A DNA stretch of 11,741 bases. Source: a virus (Duplodnaviria > Heunggongvirae > Uroviricota > Caudoviricetes). This document shows positions 1 through 11,741 of this stretch, piece after piece (within the stretch, counting starts at the first letter, position 1; each line of letters begins with the position of its first letter). The notes beneath the pieces were generated by a model. It saw nothing but the letters and a program-made list of their open reading frames with translations. It ran no database searches and was not told where the DNA came from. The stretch is taken from positions 1 to 11,741 of the IMG/VR virus record IMGVR_UViG_2778261639_000023. The stretch is one strand, 5' to 3'. Position numbers and translations under genes: made by a program.

Positions 1-1158
1 ATGCTCACCGTTAAGCAGATTGAAGCAGCAAAGCCGAAAGAAAAACCATACCGCCTTCTCGATGGTAATGGCCTGTACCTTTATGTCCCTGTATCCGGGA
101 AAAAGGTATGGCAGCTTCGCTACAAGATTGACGGTAAGGAGAAAATCCTGACCGTCGGAAAATATCCACTTATGACTTTGCAGGAGGCAAGGGATAAGGC
201 ATGGGCTGCGAGGAAAGACATCTCGGCTGGCATCGATCCGGTAAAGGCGAAAAAGGCTTCGTCTAACAACAATTCCTTTAGTGCGATTTACAAAGAATGG
301 TACGAGCACAAGAAGCAAGTATGGTCAGTAGGGTATGCGACTGAACTTGCCAAAATGTTTGATGACGACATTTTACCCATCATCGGCGGTCTTGAGATTC
401 AGGATATTGAGCCGATGCAACTGCTGGAAGTAATCCGCAGGTTTGAAGATCGCGGTGCAATGGAGCGAGCCAACAAAGCCCGCAGAAGATGCGGCGAAGT
501 TTTCCGTTACGCTATTGTCACCGGAAGGGCTAAATACAACCCGGCACCTGACCTTGCAGACGCCATGAAGGGATACCGCAAGAAGAACTTCCCGTTTCTT
601 CCTGCAGACCAGATCCCGGCATTTAATAAAGCACTGGCAACATTTTCAGGAAGTATCGTATCGCTCATTGCCACCAAGGTTTTACGCTACACAGCCCTAA
701 GAACGAAAGAGCTTCGTTCCATGCAATGGAAGAACGTCGATTTTGAAAACAGGATTATCACCATCGACGCCAGTGTGATGAAAGGACGCAAAATTCATGT
801 GGTTCCTATGTCAGACCAGGTAGTTGAACTTCTCACTACGCTAAGCTCAATCACCAAACCAGTCTCAGAGTTTGTTTTTGCCGGGCGCAACGATAAGAAG
901 AAGCCAATCTGCGAGAACGCGGTATTGCTTGTGATCAAACAAATCGGCTATGAGGGTCTGGAAAGCGGTCACGGATTCAGGCATGAATTCAGCACGATTA
1001 TGAACGAGCACGAATGGCCTGCTGATGCTATTGAAGTGCAACTGGCACATGCCAACGGCGGATCTGTGCGCGGGATTTACAACCATGCTCAGTATCTCGA
1101 TAAGCGCAGAGAAATGATGCAGTGGTGGGCGGATTGGCTTGATGAGAAGGTGGAGTGA
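1..1158 (+). CDS. intS: Phage integrase, tyrosine recombinase (P4/IntS-type with N-terminal arm-binding domain)
   Basis: 385-aa ORF. N-terminus MLTVKQIEAAKP...YRLLDGNGLYLYV is the signature of the DUF4102 arm-binding domain of P4-family integrases. C-terminal catalytic region has HGFRHEF (HxxR) and a late Tyr (RGIYNHAQY). From memory it closely resembles E. coli K-12 CPS-53 IntS, which also sits beside a gtrABC-like operon; not verified by search. Confidence 0.93.
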   Translation: MLTVKQIEAAKPKEKPYRLLDGNGLYLYVPVSGKKVWQLRYKIDGKEKILTVGKYPLMTLQEARDKAWAARKDISAGIDPVKAKKASSNNNSFSAIYKEWYEHKKQVWSVGYATELAKMFDDDILPIIGGLEIQDIEPMQLLEVIRRFEDRGAMERANKARRRCGEVFRYAIVTGRAKYNPAPDLADAMKGYRKKNFPFLPADQIPAFNKALATFSGSIVSLIATKVLRYTALRTKELRSMQWKNVDFENRIITIDASVMKGRKIHVVPMSDQVVELLTTLSSITKPVSEFVFAGRNDKKKPICENAVLLVIKQIGYEGLESGHGFRHEFSTIMNEHEWPADAIEVQLAHANGGSVRGIYNHAQYLDKRREMMQWWADWLDEKVE

Positions 1159-1311
1159 ACCACCTTAATCATTATCGAAGATCGCAAAGCCTTGCAAGCC
1201 AATGCAAATCTTTGTGTGCATCAGTTTTGTCTCATCAACCACAGCAAGTCATCGATCGATTGAGGCTTGGATGATAGACTTCATGCCTTTCTGAACTTAT
1301 TGATTAAATAA
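1159..1311 (+). promoter_or_regulatory. int-gtrA intergenic region; probable promoter/leader of the gtr operon
   Basis: 153-bp non-coding gap directly upstream of gtrA. Contains -35-like TTGCAA (1192-1197) and TTGAGG (1260-1265) and two GATC sites (1180-1183, 1254-1257). No clean sigma70 -35/-10 pair with canonical spacing could be fixed by eye. Confidence 0.35.
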
Positions 1312-1674
1312 ATGTTAAAGCTATTTGCAAAGTACACCTCGATTGGTGTGCTGAACACACTTATACACTGGGTGGTTTTTGGTGTTTGTATCTATGCAGC
1401 GCATACAAACCAGGCTCTTGCAAACTTCGCAGGTTTCGTTGTGGCTGTGAGCTTTAGCTTCTTCGCGAATGCAAAATTCACATTCAAAGCTTCGACTACA
1501 ACGATGCGCTACATGTTATATGTCGGGTTCATGGGAACACTGAGTGCAACTGTTGGATGGGCTGCTGATAGATGTTCACTTCCTCCAATTGTCACTCTCG
1601 TCACCTTCTCCGCCATCAGCCTGGTGTGCGGTTTCGTCTATTCAAAGTTCATTGTCTTTAGGGATGCGAAATGA
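1312..1674 (+). CDS. gtrA: GtrA, bactoprenol-linked glucose translocase (flippase)
   Basis: 120-aa small hydrophobic protein with about four predicted TM segments, the typical GtrA size. Immediately precedes gtrB with a 4-nt ATGA overlap. Confidence 0.9.
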
Positions 1675-2597
1675 AGATATCTCTTGTAGTTCCTGTCTTC
1701 AATGAAGAAGAAGCGATACCAATTTTTTATAAAACGGTACGTGAGTTCGAAGAGTTGAAGCCATATGAAGTGGAAATTGTTTTCATAAATGACGGAAGCA
1801 AAGACGCTACGGAGTCAATTATTAATGCTCTGGCTGTTTCAGACCCGCTGGTTGTTCCGCTGTCATTTACACGAAACTTTGGTAAAGAACCAGCATTGTT
1901 TGCAGGGCTAGACCATGCAACCGGAGATGCTGTAATTCCAATTGATGTTGACCTGCAAGATCCGATTGAGGTTATTCCCCACCTCATCGAAAAGTGGCAG
2001 GCAGGCTCTGATATGGTGCTGGCTAAGCGAACTGATCGCTCAACTGACGGACGACTGAAACGCAAAACGGCAGAGTGGTTTTATAAATTGCACAACAAAA
2101 TAAGCAACCCAAAGATCGAGGAGAATGTCGGCGATTTCCGGTTAATGAGCCGTGAAGTTGTCGAAAACATTAAGCTTATGCCAGAGCGCAACCTTTTTAT
2201 GAAAGGTGTGCTGAGTTGGGTTGGCGGTCGCACAGATGTTGTCGAGTATGCACGCGCAGAACGAGTGGCAGGCAGTACTAAATTTAATGGATGGAAACTG
2301 TGGAACCTGGCACTTGAGGGGATCACAAGCTTCTCTACTTTCCCGTTGCGCATGTGGACTTACATTGGCCTGTTCGTAGCTGGAGTTGCGTTCATGTACG
2401 GAGCGTGGATGATTGTCGATACGCTGGCATTTGGAAACGCAGTGCGTGGTTATCCATCCTTGCTGGTTTCCATCCTTTTCCTGGGTGGCATACAACTGAT
2501 TGGTATTGGCGTCCTAGGTGAATACATTGGAAGGATTTACATTGAAGTTAAAGGCAGACCAAGATATCTAATTAAGGCACGCAAGAATGAAAAATAA
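1671..2597 (+). CDS. gtrB: GtrB, bactoprenol glucosyltransferase (GT2 family)
   Basis: 308 aa. N-terminal GT2 signature ([12 protein letters not shown]...INDGSKD...DVDLQDP) and C-terminal TM helices, typical of GtrB/ArnC-like polyprenyl-phosphate glycosyltransferases. Translationally coupled to both neighbours. Confidence 0.93.
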
Positions 2598-3987
2598 ACT
2601 ACTTCACTGGTCTGTAGAAGGTTTGGCGGCCATTTTTATAGTCATTGCCTTTAGTTATTACTTTGGGTATGCCTTCACCAATCCAGATTCAGTTATTTAC
2701 AAGATAATTGCTGATGGAATAGTCAAGCACGGAGATCTTCCATATACCTTCGCCTTCGATCATAAGCCAGCTTTTATTTTCTATACTTACGCACTATTTT
2801 CACTTATCTATCCATTTAAGGTAGGCTTTTTCGCTGCCTTTTCGCTTCTTTTTTATCTTTTTACGGGATCATTGATATCTAAGCTAGCGACAGGTAGTTT
2901 CAAGCATGCATTGAGCTCTTCTGCTGCGGTGCTGTTTTTCTATTTCCCATTTCTTGATTTTTCTGGCAATACCGAGATTGTGTATAACCTCTACGCAATA
3001 GCATCTCTTTGCCTGCTTTACTGCTATAGCGCAGGATCAATGTTATTGTTTTTTTCTGGGGTGCTGGCAATTTTTGCGGTAAACACTAACTATATGGCAG
3101 GCGTAATGCTTTCACTGCCAACAATATATTTATTAATGCGAGATGGACTGAGTCCAACTGCCAAAAGGGCTGCATGGTATGCATTAGGAGTGATTGCTGG
3201 ACTTGCTATTATCCTTTTACCTATTGCTATGCAGGGATCATTGATTAGTGGTTATTTCGAGCCGCAAATTCATTTCTTAACCTCATATAACGAATCATCG
3301 CCTGGTTTCAAAACAACACTTTATTATTACTTACCTGTTCTACTGAGCATTCTTATCGCTCCGGCTTGTGTATTATTTGGATGGGTAAAGCGGGACGTTC
3401 CTGCAAGAGGGTGGGTTGCATTTGTAATCACCACCATCTCTGCATCAATAACCCTTATCTTAACAGGTAAGGAGGGTATGCATTACGCAGCCATTTACTT
3501 TGCTCCTGTTGCAATGCTAGCCGTGGCTATGGGAAGAAACCCTGTACCCATAGTGCTGGCATGCTCAATACCATTTAACTTTTACTATGCAAAGAACACT
3601 GAATATCTGTTCGAGTTGCATAACCGAGTAGAGCTATCTTATACCAAAGCTAAGGCTGAGGAGTTTGCTGCGATGCATCAGCTTGTCGGTAATGAGAAAG
3701 TGATGTCAATAAGGGCTTCGCATGTCTTATTCTACCTGTCAGACATGATCCCTTTCCATCCTTACATTTGGAACGGCCATTCAAAACTTGTATTTGGTGA
3801 TAAAGAGAATGAGTATTTTATCAAACAGTTGGAATTATCTCCTAAGTTCGTTCTTACTGGCAATGGATACTGTGAGAAGGCTGATCGCATGATTGATGTT
3901 TGCGATATGATAAAACATCATTACACCAAAAAGATGAGCATTAGCTGGGCGTTCGGATACGGTGGTGATTTGTATCAGGCTAAGTAA
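2587..3987 (+). CDS. gtrC: Serotype-specific O-antigen glucosyltransferase (GtrC / Gtr-type, polytopic membrane protein)
   Basis: 466-aa highly hydrophobic multi-TM protein in third position of the gtr operon; start overlaps the gtrB stop by 11 nt. Strongly AT-rich (about 37% GC in hand-sampled lines), as expected for horizontally acquired type-specific gtr genes. Specificity cannot be inferred. Confidence 0.8.
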
Positions 3988-3991
3988 ATAT

Positions 3992-4009
3992 AAGGGGTGC
4001 CCACCCCTT
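3992..4009. terminator. GC-rich hairpin between convergent gtrC and tailspike genes (candidate bidirectional terminator)
   Basis: AAGGGGTG-cc-CACCCCTT inverted repeat lying between the gtrC stop (3985-3987) and the tailspike stop (4015-4017). Flanked by A/T-rich sequence on the gtrC side; no strong U-tract on the + strand. Confidence 0.5.
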
Positions 4010-4014
4010 ACGCT

Positions 4015-6231
4015 CTACACTTCCCACCATCCTTGTGCTCCTGACATCTTGATAAATGTTTTTGACCATCCATTTCCTGTTTTTGTTTCCGTGCCAACAC
4101 TTAGAGGCACTATTCTATTTTCGGATGCTGTACTGCTAAATATAAACGTAACACTAGAGGATAAAGATACTCCGCGTATCACCACTCTGTCTCCGGGCTT
4201 ACCTCCTGTGATTGTGTCAATGCTTTTAGTTGCGGACGATATCCATACATTGCCATGCGAGAATGGAAGTACTGATCCAGTCAATGACTCAAGGGGTTTT
4301 GATGGGCATGGCTCACCATAGATTTGTGGGTCGTTTACACCTGCTGGAATAAGCAGTGTGGAGTTATACTTATTACCTGATCCATAAAGAGTTGGCTCAG
4401 TTGCTCCGCTCCATGTAATAGGGTAATGAGCAACAGATTTCATAGTAAAATCGTTATCACGCAACCTTAAAATGCACGCCTGAGCATTGATATACGTTAA
4501 GGCACCGCTGTTTGCCATCGCGTCAAACCAGTTGCTTCTGAATGTGGCGTCAGCGTTGTTGAAAACAACAACCGGGTCGAGTTGAGATGCTGCTGATGAA
4601 CCCCAGAGATGCGCCTTGAAGGTGCAGTTTTGTACCTTCATTCCTTTGACACTTCCTATGCGCATGAACTGGAAGCAGTTTTTTAGAATAACGCCATCAA
4701 CAATAATTGCCCCATCAGAGAAGAATGAAGGGTTTATTGCTGGTTGGGCATGTAACCCACGAAATGCCGAGTCGATGTTACCGCCTAAAATATGAACCTT
4801 GCCCATATTACCGAAAATTCGGTAAGCAGTACTCAAGTCAACTTTAGTTGACTGCACCTCGCAGTTGATAAACATAAACGTGTGATCGAAGTTTGACCAT
4901 GAAGGTAGCGGGTCGCCAGTGGAGCCGTCTTTGTCGGTGGTAATAATCTGGACGCTGGAGTTAGCGTATACAGTGTCATCGCTGAACTTAATCTTCATGT
5001 TTTCGAAGATAACGTTCTGCGAATAACGCGTAATTCCACGGTCTCCAGAGTAGCAATAACAAGCTGACTTCGTGTTGTAGGCTGTGATGTTGAGAAAATA
5101 CGCGTTGTAGCATGATGCCACTCGCCACCATCCATCACAGGTAGACACGTTTTCTACATTAAACCGCTCGACATGAATATTGTAAGGATGCAAACCATTT
5201 GTCATGGTTGAGTTTGTTGCTGGGTTTTCCGGTGCCAGACCATACTCAAAGTTACATCCAAATTTCCAAGGCCCTCCACTTATCAGGCAGTCATGCAGTC
5301 TAATGCCATCTAATTCCCCCATTCCGCAAACAACAAACCCATTGTTTAAACCTTTCCCTGTAACATTATAAATTCTGTCAATCTCAACGTCACTGGTCAT
5401 TGCACTTCCAAGATATTGACCACCAACCCAAATCATTACAGTTTGAGGCGCTGATGGATTGCTGGCGGTTGCATCTGCCCTTGTTTCTGCAACGTCATAT
5501 ACAAAGTTGGATATGCGGACTTTTTTTGAATTGTAAACGACGAAAGTATGGTTCGCGCGACCACCTGATGTAGGAATAAACCCTTGGACGTTATCCATTA
5601 TCTTCGCGCCATTGAAGTTCAGCGTGATATTACTGACTCCAATGCATTGCACGGTGCCGGTAAGGAGATACGTACTGGATGGATTGCCAATAAACTCCAC
5701 ACCCACGCCGCTGTAGGTGGTGATGGCGGTGTTTAGCGCTGCAGAGCTATCAAGAACACCCGACTTATCTACGCCCGGCAGATCGTCGATAAACATGAAT
5801 ACACGATCAAGGTATTGCGTGAGATTAACGCCGCCCTTGGTACCAATCAGGTTTGTTCCTGGAGGGTCAAATGAAGCTAATTGCTGACTGAACTGATCAG
5901 GATCATACTTCAGCACATTAGGGAAATAGAATTGCCGCGCCCCATACGCATCATAAACAGCCATAGAATGGCCTTGCTCAGTTACGAACTTGGTAATCTG
6001 TCCATTATATACAGGGTAACCAGCAGCGTTAATGATGATTGGTTGCGAAACAGGAACGTGAGAGCCGTCTTCGTTTTCCACATAAACCTGAATCTGGTTT
6101 TCAGGATTTACCGGGTCAGTGTCAATTTTACCGATATAAATTTTGCCATTGGCTACGGCTTTAAAAGAACGAGCCATAGTGAAGAGTTGCGAAGGCATGC
6201 TGACCACAACATTGGCGGTGATATCTGACAT
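4015..6231 (-). CDS. Tailspike protein (P22 gp9-type N-terminal head-binding domain plus divergent beta-helix receptor-binding/enzymatic domain)
   Basis: N-terminus [59 protein letters not shown] closely matches the P22 tailspike N-terminus as recalled ([59 protein letters not shown]). Start moved from the track's 6279 to the ATG at 6229-6231, which has a GGAG Shine-Dalgarno 8 nt upstream and aligns with the P22 start. 738 aa. Confidence 0.9.
5890..6231 (-). other. Tailspike N-terminal capsid/head-binding domain (conserved module, about residues 1-114)
   Basis: Conservation with the P22 head-binding domain continues through ...[10 protein letters not shown]...[10 protein letters not shown], then similarity to P22 is lost. 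Boundary is approximate. Confidence 0.75.
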
Positions 6232-6352
6232 TTCATTGCTCCAGACGAATGATATGATGCAACCATGATGTGATTGCATACCGAAATGGTACTATTGAGT
6301 ATTTATCCAGTAGGTTACGATGCCATTCCACCCAACTGGTGAGGCATCAAGG
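6232..6352. promoter_or_regulatory. Divergent control region between tailspike (-) and mnt (+); candidate promoters and operator-like inverted repeats
   Basis: 121-bp gap. Inverted repeat TGCAA-N11-TTGCA (about 6259-6279) and ATGATG direct repeats one helical turn apart (6254-6259, 6265-6270) on the tailspike side; CACC-N5-GGTG inverted repeat (about 6329-6342) overlapping the mnt RBS (GAGG 6342-6345). -10-like TATCAT on the minus strand about 20 nt upstream of the tailspike ATG; possible TTGAGT/TACGAT pair for mnt. Functional sites are unproven. Confidence 0.45.
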
Positions 6353-6619
6353 ATGTACAGCAAATACGACGAGGCGCAGTTTCACTTGAGACTTCCGCAT
6401 GAACTCCACGCGAAAATTAAACAGCGTGCGAAGATGAATAACAGGTCGCTGAACTCAGAGATAATTGCAGCGATTGAAGAATCGTTGGCTAAACAAAGCT
6501 CTGCATCCGTTTACATTGACGATGCAGAGCGTATGGCAGAACAACAATCTGATATGGTTAAGAAAATGGTTTTTGAAACGCTTAAGACCATGTATAGCAA
6601 TAATAAAAAGGAAACATAG
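6353..6619 (+). CDS. mnt: Mnt-like ribbon-helix-helix repressor (immI region)
   Basis: 88 aa from the ATG at 6353 (GAGG SD 7 nt upstream; the track's extra 11 N-terminal codons are unlikely). Aligns along its length with P22 Mnt as recalled: RHH region ...QFHLRLPHELHAKIKQRAKMNNRSLNSEIIAAIEESL and C-terminal tetramerisation region DAERMAEQQSDMVKKMVFETLK (P22: DAERLADEQSELVKKMVFDTLK). Confidence 0.85.
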   Translation: MYSKYDEAQFHLRLPHELHAKIKQRAKMNNRSLNSEIIAAIEESLAKQSSASVYIDDAERMAEQQSDMVKKMVFETLKTMYSNNKKET

Positions 6620-6689
6620 AAATCTAGTTTCCGGCTAAAATGGCATTGCCTTCATGATATCCTGTGAAAAACTAAGGAGAGTTAACCAT

Positions 6690-7175
6690 ATGAAAAAATC
6701 ACTGTTAATTATCCCGCTTCTGCTGGTTGGATGCGCAAAAGTAAGTGACTATCAAGCAAGTTGCGAACAACGCTATCAAAAGCTTAGCGATATGGCTAAT
6801 TGCCTTGATGCTAGTGTGAAGAACGACTCACGCATGGCATCTGCACCAACACCTAAGCTGTATGTCCTTGCTGCAAAGATGCTCGGGCAAGGTGTTGATG
6901 AAGGTAAAATAAGTGACGCACAGGCAAGACTTGAGCTTCAAAATCTTTATGTTCAATTACAAAGCCAAGAAAAAGCCCAACAAATAGCGCAAAGCCAAGC
7001 ATTCCAGCAGGCTTTATTGAATTATCAGGCTGTAAACACAATGCAAGCGATCGAGCAAAAAGCGAGACAGCCTGTTATAACTCAACCCTATCCAACACGC
7101 GTTGACACTTACACAAACTGCAATTCAGGGTTTGGAAATACAGTCACATGCAACAGTAGCAGTAACATAAGATAA
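6690..7175 (+). CDS. Lipoprotein of unknown function (moron at the sieA-equivalent position); type II signal peptide, Gln-rich coiled-coil-like segment, Cys pairs
   Basis: Start at ATG 6690 with strong SD AAGGAGA (6675-6680); 161 aa. MKKSLLIIPLLLVGC has a lipobox (LVGC; Cys15 at 6732-6734) with Ala at +2, suggesting outer-membrane sorting. Mature part has Cys pairs (SCEQ...NCLD; TNCNSGFGNTVTCN) and a Q/A-rich heptad-like stretch (LQNLYVQLQSQEKAQQIAQSQAFQQALL). No family recognised. Confidence 0.75.
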   Translation: MKKSLLIIPLLLVGCAKVSDYQASCEQRYQKLSDMANCLDASVKNDSRMASAPTPKLYVLAAKMLGQGVDEGKISDAQARLELQNLYVQLQSQEKAQQIAQSQAFQQALLNYQAVNTMQAIEQKARQPVITQPYPTRVDTYTNCNSGFGNTVTCNSSSNIR

Positions 7176-7265: not shown

Positions 7266-9263
7266 CTATTCTGACAACGCATCAGACTTAGCCCCCTGAG
7301 TCAGGGCGTTAATGGCCTTTTGTGCCTGCTGCATGGCTTTCTCGAACGCTGTTGATCCGCGTTGGGTGTTTGCCATTCGGAGCATTGCATTTCTGAATGG
7401 CTCGCTCTCATAGGCGCGAGTAAGAAGTCCATAGCTTACCGCTGCGCCAGTTGTCGCAGGGTTCATTGCTGTCCCATATCCGATAATGAACGGGATGGTT
7501 TGCTGCCCTGTTGGTGTTGTTACTGCCGCTTTTGCAGCCTGCTGCGTGGATTGCAGGTAGTTTTTCAATCCTTTCAGATAAGCGGCTTCCTGACCTTTAA
7601 ATGTGATGCCAGTCTGGTTTTGCAGGATGTTAAGCTGCCGAAGGAACTGGTCAGGGGATCCGCCAGATTTCTCCATCGCCTTTCCAATGATGCCATTGCG
7701 CATTTGCGCCCTGCCAACACGACCAACTGAGTTATACAGCGTCTTAATTTCAGATTTGTTCTTGCTGAATAGCATGTTGTTGACAACTTCCGGCGTCAGA
7801 TCGCCTTTCATGAGAACATTCTTCAGCCTGGTATTCTTGAGTTTCGCCGCTTCGTCAGCGTAGACGGCATTGGCCTGCTGATATTTACGGAGAGTATCGT
7901 TGCCAAGATTCTGACCAATGGCACCATTGATATCGTCGGTCATCGCCTTGTAAACGCGCTGAATGGCGGCATCGGAACGGTTTGGTAACACTGGTCGCTC
8001 ACCCTTCACGTCCATTCTGAACTGGCTGCGCAGATCGCTTAATTGCTTCAAGTCCAGATTTACCGGACCATCAGGACCAGCATTGCGAACAAGCTCATCA
8101 CGATATGACTGAAGTTTTGAAATAGTCTCGTTATCAGCGACCTTACCAAGCTTCTGCAGATTAGATATTTCTGTATCAATCTGCTGAATTGCTCGCGCAG
8201 GCTGAATGTTTACTCCAGCCATAGCATTCTGAACCTGCTCCAGTCGATTACCGGCGGCACGACGAATTCCTGATGTTTTCGCTTTAAGGCTGTCAATAAC
8301 AACCGCTGGATCATACTCACCGAATTTATCGGCAAATCTCTGCACCAGCTGGCTTCTCGCTTCCTGTTGCGTTGCTCTCATTCCGCTTGTGCCAGCCAGA
8401 GGGATATTTTCTGCTGTAGTCTGCGCCATTTTTCCGACGCGGGAAGTTGGTTGTAACAGGTCTGTGGTGTGCAGAGGAACTCCTTCACGCTCTGCAAATC
8501 TGATAGCCTGCTGCGCTTCTGGCGCGATAGCACCACGAACGCCACGATAAGCAGCACCTAATCCACGTCCGGCAGCGTTAATAGCACCGCCAGCAAGTAC
8601 ACCAACGCCTAAATCGGTGGCGAGTGCTTCCGCATCATCTTTCGCACTATTTGCAGCAAGTGATCCAACTGCGTTTTCTGCTAGAAGGCGAGTTGCCCCC
8701 TGAGCAATTCGACCAGCAAGTGTTGGTGCCTGTGTTGCCGCTCTCTCAACGCCAGCAGGAGTGAGGTAAGGCAATGCTTCAGCAAACACCCTGCCCTCTG
8801 TAGTTTGTGGAGTCAGCGCGCCTTGCTGAAGGCCAAAGTCCTGCTCTAATCCCTGCGTTGTTACTCGTGGCGATGGTTGATATGTACCATCGCCAATGCC
8901 GAGTTTACCGCCAGCCCAAGCCGCCGCGCTTGTTACAGCATCGGCAACTGATGCAGGTATGTTTGCCACGTTCACGCCAGCCTGCACCAGTCCGCGACCA
9001 GTCTCTTTTACTGCTTCGCCAAGATCAGACATAAATCCACTTTGCTGTGGTTGTTGCTGTGCTACTGGTTGCTGTGTCTCCACTTGCTGCACAGATAGCA
9101 ATGGATAGGCAGCATAGAAAGCTTTCTTAGCCTGCTCTGCATTTTCTCCGGCTTGCGGGGCCACGACTTCATTGAAGTATTGCTCCTGAGCCTGCGCTTT
9201 TTGTTCTGGTGCTAACGCCTGATACTGTGGAGAGGCGATAACATCTTTCCATGCTTTAGCCAT
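7266..9263 (-). CDS. Ejection (DNA-injection, E) protein, P22 gp16-like
   Basis: 665 aa, Ala/Gln/Gly-rich with low-complexity segments. Last gene of the minus-strand cluster, directly before the immI/tailspike region as gene 16 is in P22-like phages. Start ATG (9261-9263) overlaps the upstream gene's stop as TAATG. Assignment rests on size, synteny and composition, not verified alignment. Confidence 0.7.
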   Translation of the reverse strand: MAKAWKDVIASPQYQALAPEQKAQAQEQYFNEVVAPQAGENAEQAKKAFYAAYPLLSVQQVETQQPVAQQQPQQSGFMSDLGEAVKETGRGLVQAGVNVANIPASVADAVTSAAAWAGGKLGIGDGTYQPSPRVTTQGLEQDFGLQQGALTPQTTEGRVFAEALPYLTPAGVERAATQAPTLAGRIAQGATRLLAENAVGSLAANSAKDDAEALATDLGVGVLAGGAINAAGRGLGAAYRGVRGAIAPEAQQAIRFAEREGVPLHTTDLLQPTSRVGKMAQTTAENIPLAGTSGMRATQQEARSQLVQRFADKFGEYDPAVVIDSLKAKTSGIRRAAGNRLEQVQNAMAGVNIQPARAIQQIDTEISNLQKLGKVADNETISKLQSYRDELVRNAGPDGPVNLDLKQLSDLRSQFRMDVKGERPVLPNRSDAAIQRVYKAMTDDINGAIGQNLGNDTLRKYQQANAVYADEAAKLKNTRLKNVLMKGDLTPEVVNNMLFSKNKSEIKTLYNSVGRVGRAQMRNGIIGKAMEKSGGSPDQFLRQLNILQNQTGITFKGQEAAYLKGLKNYLQSTQQAAKAAVTTPTGQQTIPFIIGYGTAMNPATTGAAVSYGLLTRAYESEPFRNAMLRMANTQRGSTAFEKAMQQAQKAINALTQGAKSDALSE

Positions 9264-10696
9264 TAATCACCCCATAGTGAAGAAAAGTTACTGCTGGCTG
9301 CTGGCTGTGATACCTGTGTGGGTTGAGATTGCTGCCGCTGAGATTTACCAACATTAACGTTATATTGTTGGTTGTAATTGTTGGTGTATTCCTGAATCTC
9401 ACGAATCGACTGCTGCATAGCCTCCGGGCTTGAATAGTCAACCTGCGGCATCCCCTGAAAATACATCTTCGCTTCTGCTACGGTGTTAATACCACTGGCA
9501 CCCATGTCCCTTGCTGCCGCCACGCCCTGATTCTGCATTCTTCCCTGAATACGTTGTGCTGAGTTATATAACTGACGCTGATCTTTTCCTGTTAATCGGC
9601 TGCGAACATCAGCACCAATTGCCGGGTTACCTGCACCGCCGGTCATTCCTGTCATGAAATCGAGAGCAGAAGCGTCTGCATTTGCGATCGCGTCGATATC
9701 CTTCTTCATGGCATAGTTTTGTGCTGATGCAGACGATGTTGCAGGCGCTGCGATTGAACTGGCAGGAACGCGAACCATATTCCCCTCGTTGTCGATGCCT
9801 TCGTAGAACGCATTTGCCCCAGCGCCGTGAAGTTTCCCGCCAACCGTTACCGTTCTACCATCTGCCAGTTGCACAACATTCTCCCCGCCAGCATCAGGAC
9901 GGCCTCGAACACGAAGATATGTCTTTTGTTGCTCTGGAGACAGGCTGTTGAAATATTGATATTCTTTAACAGATGCAGGAACAGCACCTCCAGCAGTGCG
10001 CAGGGAGTTTTCACGGCTAACAGCAATGCTTTGCGCCTGTAAACCTTCCCCAGCTTTATTGCTGCGAATCGTCTCTGCCAACTCGCCACGCTCAATATCC
10101 CGACCAGCCATCTTGTCCTGAACATTGAAGTAATCAATCGGACCAAGCGCAGCCATCCCAAGATGATCAACAAATTCTGTGAAACCTTGTGGATTTTGCT
10201 GATACATTTTCGCCACATCCAGAGGGTCTACTCCGGCACGAGTAAGCTCAGATGAGTTGTTCTGCAACCATGACATCATGGCTTCTGGAGATGAAGCTGC
10301 GAGTCTGGCACTTGCTGCCAGTGTACCGACAGTGGAACGCTGGTCTTCATCGACAAATTTCATGCCGTTTCTTACAGCGTCAAACTGCTCAGGATACTGT
10401 GATGCCAGTTTTCGCATTGCATCGCGGTCGCCAGATGTATATGCATCAGCATAAGCCTGCTGAAACTCTTGCTGCCGCTTCTGCTGATCCATCTGCTTAT
10501 ACATATCCATGACAGATGAAATGCCCTGCAAAGCCTGCAAGCCAACGTTATTACGTCCTGAACGCTCCATCTCATTATTCTGTCGAATGTATGCAAGCGT
10601 GGCGTCTGCATCACTTGCTCTTGGAGCGTTGGAGTTCATGCCGCCTAACCCGGCAAGAAGCGCGCCTGAATTACCAGCCTGTTGCCATGTAGCCAA
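9263..10696 (-). CDS. Ejection (E) protein, P22 gp20-like
   Basis: 477 aa (P22 gp20 is of similar size), immediately upstream of and coupled to the gp16-like gene. Apparent TTG start at 10694-10696 with a strong GGAGG SD 6 nt upstream; an in-frame stop precludes a longer N-terminus. Confidence 0.7.
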
Positions 10697-10708
10697 GAGA
10701 CACCTCCA

Positions 10709-11032
10709 TTAAAACAGTGAACCAAGAAGGCCGACGCCAGCACCAATTGCTGTACCCCAACCAGGCATGATTGCAGTACCTGCAGCTGCACCTGCCGCAG
10801 CTCCACCCAAGGCGCTCTGAAATCCTGATGGTTTAACTCCGGATGGTTGGGTTATAGTGCCGAAGAAACTAACCGCTGAGAACGGCGCTAAGGGTGTGCT
10901 ATCCGGTGAATTTTCAGAAACGACGTTTATAAGCTGCCCGGAATGTTTTGGCGATGATGATTGCGATACCTGTGACGGTAGCGGGCGGATTGAAATTAAA
11001 GTACCAGTCACGTGGACGACCATAAAATCCAT
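10709..11032 (-). pseudogene. Possible 3' remnant of an ejection-protein gene (gp7-like) with C-terminal glycine-zipper segment; extent and intactness uncertain
   Basis: Stop TAA (10709-10711) sits 1 nt before the gp20-like SD, so the 3' end is in operon context. C-terminus ...ALGGAAAGAAAGTAIMPGWGTAIGAGVGLLGSLF looks like a membrane glycine zipper. N-terminal two-thirds is Ser/Pro-rich low complexity with no SD before either ATG (11032 or 11021), and 107 aa is far shorter than P22 gp7 (about 229 aa). It overlaps a plausible + strand ORF. Confidence 0.35.
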
Positions 11033-11093
11033 CTGGGATAAAGGTATTGCGTATTTTTCAGCAGAACCGAGGCAGGAGGTTAACCGTGGCTAA
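10857..11093 (+). CDS. Hypothetical small Cys-rich (zinc-finger-like) protein; conflicts with the minus-strand ORF 10709..11032
   Basis: 78-aa ORF containing CPEC-x5-CDTCDGSG (CxxC...CxxCxGxG, reminiscent of DnaJ-type zinc knuckles). Its end overlaps the start of the downstream ASCH-like gene by 8 nt, suggesting coupling. Weaknesses: GTG start and poor SD. Confidence 0.3.
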   Translation: MPKKLTAENGAKGVLSGEFSETTFISCPECFGDDDCDTCDGSGRIEIKVPVTWTTIKSIWDKGIAYFSAEPRQEVNRG

Positions 11094-11370
11094 CCTGCAA
11101 CTTGCAGTCAAAGGCGAATACTTCGATGCCATGATTCGCGGAGAGAAAACAGAAGAATATCGCCTGTGTAATGACTACTGGAATAAGCGCCTCGTTAACC
11201 GCGAGTATGGCAGTCTGATCATCACGAAGGGATATCCGAAGCGCGACGATTCCAGCCGCAGAATTGATGTTCCGTATGACGGATATGAAATCAAGACAAT
11301 CACACATCCGCACTTCGGTGATAAACCGGTAAAGGTGTTCGCGATAAAGGTGAATATCGGCAATGAATAA
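11086..11370 (+). CDS. ASCH/PUA-like domain protein (DUF3850-like)
   Basis: Start chosen at GTG 11086, preceded by a perfect AGGAGG (11074-11079) with 6-nt spacing; the track's TTG at 11047 has no SD. 94 aa. Motif ...KGEYFDAMIRGEKTEEYR...GSLIITKGY... fits the beta-barrel ASCH/DUF3850 pattern common in phage accessory regions. Confidence 0.65.
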   Translation: MANLQLAVKGEYFDAMIRGEKTEEYRLCNDYWNKRLVNREYGSLIITKGYPKRDDSSRRIDVPYDGYEIKTITHPHFGDKPVKVFAIKVNIGNE

Positions 11371-11374
11371 CAAT

Positions 11375-11429
11375 CCTCGCACTCGCGGGGATTTCTTTTA
11401 TCTGAACTCGCTACGGCGAGTTTTGTTTT
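11375..11429 (+). terminator. Two tandem hairpins downstream of the ASCH-like gene; the second is a good intrinsic terminator
   Basis: Hairpin 1: CCTCGC-actc-GCGGGG (11375-11390, one G-U pair) followed by ATTTCTTTT. Hairpin 2: ACTCGC-tacg-GCGAGT (11406-11421, 6-bp stem, 4-nt loop) followed by TTTGTTTT (11422-11429). Confidence 0.55.
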
Positions 11430-11441
11430 ATGGAGATGATT

Positions 11442-11741
11442 ATGGCCTGTTCAACATTCAACCCTCTAACGTTACAGAAATACCAGCCAGACCCTGAAGA
11501 TTTATGCTCACTGTGTGGCGGAAATCATGGTAAAGCCGCCATGATCGAATGTAAGGACAAAATCCACATATGCCTTAATTGCGTTGATGTCCTCGTTGAT
11601 ATCAAAAATGATAGAGAAGATAAAAAGCGTAGCGAGGCTGTTCGCGCCTTAGATTCATGGATGCGAGATGGGTATAGTGCCGCGCAAATTTATGACTTAG
11701 CAATATCAAAAGGCGAAATACCAGGAGTGCGCATCGAATAA
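11442..11741 (+). CDS. Hypothetical zinc-ribbon protein (CxxC-x16-CxxC)
   Basis: Start chosen at ATG 11442 (GGAG 11432-11435, 6-nt spacer); 99 aa. Contains CSLCGG...HICLNC, an N-terminal zinc-ribbon-like motif, followed by a charged helical C-terminal half. Ends exactly at the window edge with TAA. Family not recognised. Confidence 0.55.
   Translation: MACSTFNPLTLQKYQPDPEDLCSLCGGNHGKAAMIECKDKIHICLNCVDVLVDIKNDREDKKRSEAVRALDSWMRDGYSAAQIYDLAISKGEIPGVRIE

What the first reader, a model, noticed from the sequence alone, without database searches (positions are those of the whole stretch)
4015..5889. Mosaic tailspike: P22-type head-binding domain fused to a different receptor-binding body, co-resident with the gtr operon
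Seen in sequence: the first ~114 residues track the P22 tailspike N-terminus (recalled), but after ...KYDPDQF the sequence diverges into a long Asn/Gly/Ser/Thr-rich region consistent with a beta-helix (repeats such as [27 protein letters not shown]). Established knowledge: P22-like tailspikes exchange receptor-binding modules at this boundary and their bodies are O-antigen-specific hydrolases or deacetylases. Inference: its substrate should be the host O-antigen that the adjacent gtr operon modifies, making this a matched recognition/modification pair whose specificity is not evident from sequence.
Basis: partly seen in the sequence, partly recalled or inferred. Interest (0 to 1): 0.4.

Follow-up and report, generated by a model that had tools for sequence, protein, structure and literature searches.

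The report
Mosaic tailspike in a degraded prophage
This is an ordinary P22/Sf6-type phage tailspike gene: a standard virion-attachment domain joined to a rare, uncharacterised sugar-cutting beta-helix body, sitting beside an O-antigen-modifying gtr operon in a prophage that has lost most of its genome.

Summary
The gene lies on the minus strand (4015-6231, 738 aa). The stated coordinates, 4015-5889, cover only the body.

- **N-terminal domain:** residues 1-113 match Pfam Head_binding (E 1.6e-65). Residues 1-114 are 91% identical to Sf6 and 73% to P22.
- **Break point:** similarity to all P22-like phages stops at KYDPDQF.
- **Relatives:** about 61 unnamed clusters, all in Enterobacterales phages, attached to at least four different N-terminal anchors. 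The only cultured-phage relative is Lelliottia phage phD2B (46%).
- **gtr link:** this tailspike body and the rare 466-aa GtrC family are linked more often than not: 99%/99% in another prophage, 49%/41% in a metagenomic phage, and gtrC deletion scars beside the 83% and 77% tailspike variants. The link is not obligate.
- **Specificity:** the target sugar remains unknown.
- **New point:** the prophage here is a roughly 12-kb remnant. The 3' end of the gene-7 homologue is joined directly to early-left genes, so this copy cannot build virions.

Verdict: a new member of a known kind, of low interest.

The parts
5890..6231 (-). Tailspike residues 1-114: the P22/Sf6-type head-binding (tail-hub docking) domain. 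The start ATG at 6231 is preceded by GGAG.
   Evidence: Pfam PF09008 covers residues 1-113, E 1.6e-65. 91.2% identity to Sf6 gp14 and 72.8% to P22 gp9. Foldseek hits to 7sg7, 1lkt and 2vky. Start context.
4432..5889 (-). Tailspike residues about 115-600: short helical neck (about 111-144), then a right-handed parallel beta-helix with the conserved motifs [18 protein letters not shown] (325-351), YSGDRG (393-398), KDGSTG.PLPSW (434-445) and NCE (456-458). This is the presumed glycan-binding and cleaving part.
4018..4431 (-). Tailspike residues about 601-738: C-terminal all-beta domain. It is part of the more variable C-terminal third (about 480-720). The stop codon is at 4015-4017.
   Evidence: Secondary structure. 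Block identities to P0002 are 100% over residues 121-400 but 45-58% over about 480-720. A role in trimerisation is inferred from other tailspikes, not shown.
3990..4011 (.). GC-rich hairpin (AAGGGGTG-CC-CACCCCTT) in the 27-bp gap between the convergent gtrC and tailspike stop codons. It is probably a shared terminator.
   Evidence: Sequence. Terminator-like hit on the minus strand at 4011-3990. Sf6 has an annotated terminator at the same position between oac and gene 14.
2587..3987 (+). 466-aa polytopic membrane protein in the gtrC position, the presumed serotype-specific glycosyltransferase. It belongs to a very rare, unnamed family.
   Evidence: No hit in Pfam, PHROGs, NCBIfam or the phage collection (tblastn). 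Only 10 relative clusters, all unnamed. About 8 hydrophobic segments, and invariant FDHKP at residues 57-61.
1671..2597 (+). gtrB: bactoprenol glucosyltransferase (GT2).
   Evidence: PF00535, E 2.2e-31. Annotated yfdH in E. coli matches.
1312..1674 (+). gtrA: small membrane flippase-like protein.
   Evidence: PF04138, E 1.8e-13.
1..1158 (+). IntS-type tyrosine integrase at the left end of the prophage.
   Evidence: 96.4% nucleotide identity to the Sf6 integrase gene 16. Annotated 'intS' in E. coli matches.
6320..6619 (+). Mnt/Arc-type ribbon-helix-helix repressor, a remnant of the immI region. No arc or ant gene follows it.
   Evidence: PF03869, E 1.1e-14, and PF11423, E 3.9e-12. Compare L001 and L006, where arc and ant are present.
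7266..10834 (-). Ejection-protein genes: gp16 homologue at 7266-9263, gp20 homologue at 9263-10696, and only the last 40 or so codons of the gp7 homologue. Homology to structural genes ends at about 10834.
   Evidence: 96.5% identity to Sf6 gene 13. E. coli matches end at 10835. Only the last 41 residues (67-107) of the 107-aa ORF resemble gp7.
10835..11741 (+). Early-left (ea) region genes joined directly to the truncated gene 7: the tail of an ead/Ea22-like gene, an ASCH-domain ORF at 11047-11370, and an Sf6 gene 19 / 933W L0063-like ORF from 11430. This join is the deletion junction that makes the prophage a remnant.
   Evidence: Window 10834-11250 matches 'ead/Ea22-like | ASCH domain' loci in E. 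coli. None of 5,426 complete genomes covers at least 80% of the junction query. 98.4% identity to the Sf6 gene 19 region. 96% identity to 933W L0063-L0065.

Best explanation
The gene encodes a P22/Sf6-type tailspike. Its N-terminal 114 residues are the conserved domain that docks the trimeric spike onto the tail hub of a P22-like virion. From residue 115 onwards a different module has been recombined in. It consists of a short neck, a right-handed parallel beta-helix and a C-terminal beta domain.

By analogy with every studied spike of this architecture, the body binds the host's surface polysaccharide along the helix and cleaves it, using conserved carboxylates. The candidates are E329, D397, D435 and E458. 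The target is most probably a particular E. coli O-antigen. The body belongs to a small, uncharacterised family that has moved between P22-like, siphovirus-type and Autographiviridae phages of Enterobacterales.

The convergent gtrABC operon, with its rare GtrC, most likely glucosylates the same O-antigen. That would make lysogens poorer substrates for spikes of this type. The two modules have been inherited together in several lineages.

In this window the prophage is reduced to int-gtrABC-tailspike-mnt-lipoprotein-gp16-gp20-'gp7 joined to early-left genes. This tailspike copy therefore cannot be assembled by its own prophage and probably lacks late transcription. It persists as an intact passenger and as recombination stock next to a conversion operon the host may still use.

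Shown: the domain identity, the break point, the predicted fold, the distribution, the linkage pattern and the deletion. Inferred: trimer formation, catalysis, O-antigen as the substrate, blocking by gtr, and transcriptional silence.
For: - **Head-binding domain:** PF09008 covers residues 1-113, E 1.6e-65. 91% identity to Sf6 and 73% to P22.
- **Break point:** 29 phage records match only gene nucleotides 1-355.
- **Conservation:** invariant acidic and basic residues across 47 relatives.
- **Same body on other anchors:** PF18668, PF03906, PF12571 or no recognised anchor. It occurs in a tape-measure-bearing prophage (L010), a 43-kb podovirus-like contig (L011) and the Molineuxvirinae phage phD2B.
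- **Linkage to this GtrC family:** L002-L005 at 99%/99%, L014/L015 at 49%/41%, and gtrC 3' scars in L006 and L007.
- **Gene order:** identical to Sf6 int-oac-gene 14.
- **Published background:** the principles for gtr and tailspike modules are in PMC2629481. gtrABC is listed among P22's prophage-expressed systems that interfere with superinfection (abstract of 10.1101/2023.08.15.553423).
- **Remnant status:**
Against: - No enzymatic or binding data exist for any member of the body family, and every relative is unnamed.
- The fold alone does not separate hydrolase, lyase, epimerase or pure binder.
- The substrate class is not readable from sequence.
- The gtr link is not obligate: L001 and L009 lack gtr, L010 has an unrelated gtr-like operon, and L016 pairs a GtrC relative with an unrelated spike.
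- The model is a monomer, so trimer contacts and any inter-subunit active site were not examined.
- The body was not found in any of 5,426 complete E. coli genomes, even at low stringency. No host serogroup could therefore be assigned.
Confidence: 0.7

Rival explanations
1. The body targets a capsule, colanic acid or another exopolysaccharide rather than O-antigen, as the CUS-3 endosialidase does. On this reading the neighbouring gtr operon is functionally unrelated to it.
For: - CUS-3 shares the same head-binding domain (89.9% nucleotide identity) but carries a K1 endosialidase.
- The best PHROG hit is labelled as colanic-acid-degrading, though the match covers only residues 1-257.
- Three invariant arginines (R370, R402, R471) could bind acidic sugars.
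- Relatives are spread over five genera.
Against: - This body co-occurs repeatedly with O-antigen-modifying gtr operons: this rare GtrC family, and an unrelated gtr-like operon in L010.
- Most characterised P22-like spikes are O-antigen specific (PMC2629481; PMC10408124 abstract).
- The PHROG match beyond the anchor covers only the generic start of the beta-helix.
Confidence: 0.15
2. The adjacency with gtrABC is only inherited gene order. P22-like phages keep conversion genes between int and the tailspike, so GtrC modifies a glycan this spike does not care about, or its modification does not block the spike.
For: - Sf6 has the same layout with an unrelated conversion gene, oac.
- gtr clusters are described as highly mobile (PMC2629481).
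- Many-to-many pairings are seen in L001, L010 and L016.
Against: - The GtrC family is extremely rare, with 10 clusters in 5.8 billion proteins. Yet its relatives or scars lie beside this body in 5 of 7 distinct P22-like loci examined, and the two diverge roughly in parallel.
Confidence: 0.25
3. The body is a non-catalytic adhesin or has another chemistry such as epimerase or deacetylase. It would recognise the glycan without depolymerising it.
For: - No catalytic-family signature was detected.
Against: - Invariant carboxylates and a strictly conserved loop (residues 325-351) in 47 relatives suggest an active site.
- Known deacetylating spikes use SGNH esterase domains, not beta-helices (own knowledge).
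- Studied P22-like beta-helix spikes are glycanases.
Confidence: 0.1

Closest known systems
Shigella phage Sf6 tailspike gp14 (endorhamnosidase) with the oac-int module
   Same: - The N-terminal 114 residues are 91% identical.
- The gene order is identical: int, conversion gene(s), convergent tailspike with a hairpin between them, then ejection genes.
- The integrase is 96% identical and the gp16 homologue 96.5% identical at the nucleotide level.
- The body has the same beta-helix architecture.
   Different: - Body sequence is unrelated. Profile and sequence searches find nothing, and structure-based alignment gives about 12% identity.
- The conversion module is gtrABC rather than the O-acetyltransferase oac.
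- The prophage here is a remnant.
Salmonella phage P22 tailspike gp9 with gtrABC
   Same: - Head-binding domain of the same family, 73% identical.
- gtrABC lies between int and the tailspike.
- Module exchange occurs at about residue 115 (PMC2629481).
   Different: - The body is not homologous at the sequence level.
- GtrC is of an unrelated type.
- The specificity is unknown.
Lelliottia phage phD2B hypothetical protein phD2B_0049 (Autographiviridae, Molineuxvirinae)
   Same: It is the only cultured-phage relative of the body: 46% identity over 98% of the body, with predicted structures at TM 0.92.
   Different: - It has no head-binding domain and almost no N-terminal anchor.
- The phage is lytic and of another family.
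- Its function is also unknown.
E. coli K-12 CPS-53 (KpLE1) cryptic prophage, intS-yfdG-yfdH-yfdI (recalled from own knowledge)
   Same: It is a degraded P22-like prophage that begins with intS followed by a gtrABC-like operon. E. coli matches to the window carry 'intS' and 'yfdH' annotations.
   Different: - The GtrC type differs.
- The window retains an intact tailspike and two ejection genes.
- The attachment site was not seen in the window.
Tailspike receptor-binding-domain exchange across E. coli phage genera (Pas et al. 2023, PMC10408124)
   Same: The principle is the same: one receptor-binding body appears on different anchors in different phage genera, including Lederbergvirus.
   Different: This body type has no relative among cultured E. 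coli phages. No serogroup could be assigned to it here, and I did not check it against the 14 serogroup-linked subtypes named in that paper's abstract.

Membership tests
P22-like (Lederbergvirus-type) tailspike | N-terminal head-binding domain (Pfam PF09008), about 110 residues | tested here: met
   Full-length match covering residues 1-113, E 1.6e-65. 91% identity to Sf6 and 73% to P22.
P22-like (Lederbergvirus-type) tailspike | Gene lies downstream of the ejection-protein genes and immI region, next to the int and conversion genes | tested here: met
   The window order int-gtrABC-tailspike-mnt-gp16-gp20 matches Sf6.
P22-like (Lederbergvirus-type) tailspike | Receptor-binding body built as a right-handed parallel beta-helix followed by a C-terminal beta domain | tested here: met
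P22-like (Lederbergvirus-type) tailspike | Homotrimer with polysaccharide-cleaving activity | not testable with these tools
   Only a monomer model was made, and there is no biochemistry.
Characterised tailspike body families (P22 and Sf6 endorhamnosidases, HK620 endo-N-acetylglucosaminidase, CUS-3 endosialidase, CBA120 TSP1-4) | Detectable sequence homology of the body to one of these | tested here: not met
   phmmer and profile hmmsearch against PDB hit only the head-binding domain. Structure-based identity is 6-16%. tblastn against 50,697 phage records finds only phD2B.
GtrABC serotype-conversion operon | gtrA (GtrA/DPMS TM family) and gtrB (GT2 bactoprenol glucosyltransferase) in tandem with overlapping ends | tested here: met
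   PF04138, E 1.8e-13; PF00535, E 2.2e-31; the gene ends overlap.
GtrABC serotype-conversion operon | Third gene encodes a variable polytopic inner-membrane glycosyltransferase (GtrC) | tested here: inconclusive
   The position, size (466 aa) and about 8 hydrophobic segments fit, and an invariant FDHKP loop motif is present. No homology to any named GtrC or Pfam family was found. The fold was not compared.
GtrABC serotype-conversion operon | Glucosylation of the O-antigen that changes serotype or phage adsorption | not testable with these tools
   This needs LPS chemistry and adsorption assays.
Intact, inducible P22-like prophage | Complete set of head, portal, terminase, tail-hub, lysis, replication and immunity genes between the ejection genes and the early-left genes | tested here: not met
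   The 3' end of the gene-7 homologue abuts ead/Ea22-like and ASCH genes at about 10834/10835. Compare the full structural gene sets in L002.

The most novel reading that the evidence does not exclude
The tailspike body and the very rare 466-aa GtrC family form a co-inherited 'recognise-and-mask' cassette. They are convergent genes sharing one hairpin and have diverged in step: 99%/99%, 77%/79% (scar only) and 49%/41%. On this reading the GtrC modification specifically blocks this glycanase. Together they would define a so far undescribed O-antigen specificity, and the body would found a new glycanase family with its own catalytic loop (residues 325-351).
Probability: 0.3. Interest if true: 0.4.

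Novelty: new member of a known kind. Interest (0 to 1): 0.22.

Why it matters
Tailspike bodies decide which serotypes a phage can infect, and they are raw material for serotyping reagents and depolymerase enzymes. This one adds an uncharacterised, rare body family and an equally rare GtrC partner to the catalogue.

The loci collected here give a small natural experiment on how recognition and masking modules travel together and come apart. They include the intact pair, scars left by gtr deletion, the same body on four anchors, and a variable C-terminal third.

None of this changes current understanding. Module swapping at residue 115 and gtr-tailspike adjacency are textbook features of P22-like phages. 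Near-identical proteins (99.7%, WP_064763323.1) are already in public databases under a generic name.

Tried and rejected
- **Wrong strand first.** I translated the stated coordinates on the + strand, which gave only stop-ridden sequence. The gene is on the minus strand.
- **Nucleotide search in E. coli.** I looked for the body in 5,426 complete E. coli genomes, both near and distant, to assign a host serogroup. There was no match, so no serogroup could be inferred.
- **Solved structures by sequence.** Sequence and profile searches matched only the head-binding domain.
- **GtrC family assignment.** Searches of Pfam, NCBIfam and PHROGs, a tblastn search of phage records, and a permissive per-member Pfam scan gave nothing meaningful.
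- **Shared gtr operon in L010.** I tested whether the gtr-like operon next to the 75% identical body in L010 is the same family. It is not.
- **Dam/OxyR phase variation of gtr.** There are only two GATC sites in the int-gtrA spacer, and GATC is not enriched in the window. I left this inconclusive.
- **Deacetylase idea.** I rejected it for lack of any esterase signature and because the fold is a beta-helix.
- **Unused tools.** I did not use the second structure-prediction job on GtrC, because no fold-search jobs remained to interpret it.
Full report
**1. What is at the coordinates**

The + strand of 4015-5889 has no open frame. The minus strand carries an ORF at 4015-6279. Its real start is the ATG at 6231. 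A GGAG lies 7 nt upstream of it, and the product begins MSDITANVV, aligning with residue 1 of the Sf6 and P22 tailspikes. The protein has 738 residues. The finding's coordinates correspond exactly to residues 115-738 plus the stop codon, which is the body only. The head-binding domain is encoded at 5890-6231.

**2. The N-terminal domain**

Pfam Head_binding (PF09008) matches residues 1-113 over the whole 113-position model, with E 1.6e-65. Over residues 1-114 the protein is 91.2% identical to Sf6 gp14 and 72.8% to P22 gp9.

A megablast of the gene against 50,697 phage records hits 29 records, including IME10, HK620, CUS-3, Sf6, Sf101 and g341c. Every one of them matches only nucleotides 1 to about 340-355 of the gene. 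Similarity therefore ends at KYDPDQF (residues 108-114). This is the boundary described for P22-like tailspikes (PMC2629481).

**3. The body**

No Pfam, NCBIfam or PDB sequence match extends past the anchor. A profile built from 47 relatives also finds nothing in the PDB.

An AlphaFold2 model built on that alignment has mean pLDDT 89.9, with values above 90 over most of residues 150-738. It shows a short helical neck, a long run of short beta strands, and a C-terminal all-beta part.

In BFVD the only close structure is an uncharacterised protein of Lelliottia phage phD2B, at 46% identity and TM 0.92. That protein is also the only tblastn hit among cultured phages. phD2B is a lytic Autographiviridae phage of subfamily Molineuxvirinae.

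The alignment of 47 relatives shows these invariant residues: E329, H348, R370, D397, R402, D435, E458 and R471. It also shows a strictly conserved loop, [18 protein letters not shown], at residues 325-351. This is the pattern expected of an active site, but the chemistry cannot be read from it.

**4. How common it is, and on which phages**

In 5.8 billion clustered proteins, the body has 61 relative clusters at E <= 1e-5. All carry only generic names. The nearest, P0001 (WP_064763323.1, E. coli), is 99.7% identical to the window protein.

The relatives come from E. coli, Enterobacter, Citrobacter, Lelliottia and Providencia. The same body is attached to several different N-terminal anchors:
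- PF09008, the P22-type head-binding domain;
- PF18668, Tail_spike_N;
- PF03906, the T7 tail-fibre N-terminus;
- PF12571;
- no recognised anchor at all.

Genomic contexts confirm that these are different phage types:
- a prophage with a 1,518-aa tape-measure protein (L010);
- a 43-kb contig with terminase, portal and capsid genes (L011);
- phD2B.

The body was absent from 5,426 complete E. coli genomes, even with blastn word size 11. It is therefore rare in E. coli.

There is a second level of mosaicism inside the body. P0002 is 100% identical over residues 121-400, only 45-58% over about 480-720, and 100% again at the extreme C-terminus. L014's spike is about 49% identical overall but nearly identical over residues 117-177.

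**5. The gtr neighbour and the 'matched pair' claim**

The genes at 1312-1674, 1671-2597 and 2587-3987 are gtrA (PF04138), gtrB (GT2) and a 466-aa protein in the gtrC position. The third protein has about eight hydrophobic segments and a C-terminal soluble part of roughly 135 aa. It has no hit in Pfam, PHROGs, NCBIfam or any phage record. It has only 10 relative clusters in the whole protein collection, all unnamed. An invariant FDHKP motif sits early in the protein.

gtrC and the tailspike are convergent and 27 bp apart, with a GC hairpin between them. Sf6 has a terminator at the same place between oac and gene 14.

I tested the linkage by fetching related loci:

| Locus | Tailspike vs window | GtrC vs window | Note |
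|---|---|---|---|
| L002-L005 | 99.3% | 99.4% | Adjacent, in an apparently complete P22-like prophage beside dacD; one copy is in an NCTC genome |
| L014/L015 | 49% | 41% | Adjacent, same convergent layout, metagenomic P22-like phage |
| L007 | 77% | scar only | int is present; only the last 67 bp or so of gtrC remain next to the spike (24 codons at 79% identity) |
| L006 | 83% | scar only | Only the gtrC 3' end and a 64-bp int 3' fragment remain |
| L001 | 99.7% | none | No gtr and no scar |
| L009 (Providencia) | 40% | none | |
| L010 | body 75% | unrelated | Next to a different gtr-like operon: an unrelated 615-aa protein, an EamA-like protein and a distant GT2 |
| L016, L012/L013 | unrelated spike | 48% | GtrC relatives next to an unrelated PF18668 spike |

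The two modules have therefore travelled together for a long time in P22-like phages, and the gtr operon has been lost repeatedly. The pairing is not exclusive, however.

This fits the established picture. Conversion genes sit next to the tailspike, gtr clusters are highly mobile, and they are often found in degraded prophages (PMC2629481). gtrABC is also one of P22's prophage-expressed systems that interfere with superinfection (abstract of 10.1101/2023.08.15.553423). The linkage makes a functional match probable but does not prove it.

**6. The prophage is a remnant**

The window matches Sf6 as follows:
- int, 96.4%;
- the tailspike anchor;
- gene 13 (the gp16 homologue), 96.5%;
- the gp20 homologue region, more weakly;
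- then, from 11364 onwards, Sf6 gene 19 at 98.4%. In the circular phage map this gene lies on the far side of attP.

Window 10834-11250 matches 'ead/Ea22-like | ASCH domain' early-region loci in E. coli. E. coli matches to the structural side stop at 10835. None of the 5,426 genomes covers at least 80% of the junction query. The 107-aa ORF at 10709-11032 resembles gp7 only in its last 41 residues (67-107).

Everything from gene 7 through the head, tail-hub, lysis, replication and immunity genes is therefore missing. What remains, in order, is:
- int, gtrABC and the tailspike;
- mnt (no arc or ant follows it);
- a lipoprotein-like ORF (phrog_6067, function unknown);
- the gp16 and gp20 homologues and the truncated gene-7 homologue;
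- the early-left genes.

Two things follow by inference. This tailspike copy cannot be packaged by its own prophage. It also lacks the late-operon promoter and its activator. The layout resembles the CPS-53/KpLE1 remnant of E. coli K-12, intS-yfdGHI (own knowledge; the annotations show intS and yfdH).

**7. Mechanism, rivals and comparison**

The best reading (confidence 0.7) is a trimeric, polysaccharide-cleaving tailspike with an Sf6-type anchor. Its target is most probably an O-antigen that the adjacent gtr operon modifies. Here it is carried by a dead prophage.

The rivals are:
- a capsule or exopolysaccharide target (0.15);
- adjacency by inherited gene order only (0.25). This rival concerns only the 'matched pair' part;
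- a non-catalytic body or one with other chemistry (0.1).

The protein meets the tests for a P22-like tailspike: anchor, position and predicted fold. It fails the test for any characterised body family. The gtr operon meets the gtrA and gtrB tests, but its GtrC belongs to no named family.

**8. Verdict**

The phenomenon is textbook, and near-identical proteins are already deposited under a generic name. It is a new member of a known kind and scores 0.22 for interest. Modest added value lies in three things: the rare body-GtrC pairing, the internal mosaicism of the body, and the recognition that this copy sits in a remnant.

Noticed in passing
window 10700-11100 (junction at about 10834/10835): The prophage is a deletion remnant. 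The last 40 or so codons of the gene-7 ejection-protein homologue are joined directly to ead/Ea22-like and ASCH early-left genes. No complete E. coli genome covers at least 80% of the junction query.
   Followed up: yes
window 2587-3987 (+): The protein in the gtrC position belongs to a very rare, unnamed family: 10 clusters in 5.8 billion proteins, and no Pfam, NCBIfam or PHROG hit. It has an invariant FDHKP motif at residues 57-61, about 8 hydrophobic segments and a C-terminal soluble part of roughly 135 aa.
   Followed up: partly
window 6654-7175 (+); likely start at the ATG at 6690: A lipoprotein-like ORF (MKKSLLIIPLLLVGC lipobox, Q-rich middle) of PHROG family 6067, function unknown. It sits between mnt and the gp16 homologue, where P22 carries sieA and the 'ant moron'. 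It may be a moron or superinfection-exclusion candidate.
   Followed up: no
window 6320-6619 (+): An Mnt/Arc-type repressor is present, but no arc or ant gene follows it. Related prophages (L001, L006, L009) have arc plus an antirepressor here.
   Followed up: no
window 4018-4790 (tailspike residues about 480-738): There is second-level mosaicism inside the body. Cluster P0002 is 100% identical over residues 121-400, 45-58% over about 480-720, and 100% again at the last 18 residues. This suggests the C-terminal third is exchanged separately.
   Followed up: partly
L014 2747-4948 versus window 5701-5883 (tailspike residues 117-177): A metagenomic P22-like tailspike that is 49% identical overall is nearly identical (about 97%) over residues 117-177 only. 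This looks like a recombination patch at the neck and the start of the helix.
   Followed up: no
L007 10218-10660; L006 10221-10723: These loci show scars of gtrABC loss. L007 keeps int and the last 67 bp or so of gtrC beside the tailspike. L006 keeps only the gtrC 3' end and a 64-bp fragment of the int 3' end.
   Followed up: yes
L010 10287-13426: In a siphovirus-type E. coli prophage, a 75% identical body on a PF18668 anchor lies convergent to an unrelated gtr-like operon: a GT2, an EamA-like small membrane protein and a 615-aa membrane protein.
   Followed up: partly
window 1159-1311: The int-gtrA spacer holds two GATC sites (1180 and 1254). I did not establish whether this supports Dam/OxyR phase variation like the Salmonella gtr operons.
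   Followed up: partly
window 3990-4011: A perfect 8-bp GC-rich hairpin lies between the convergent gtrC and tailspike stop codons. It is probably a shared, bidirectional terminator.
   Followed up: partly
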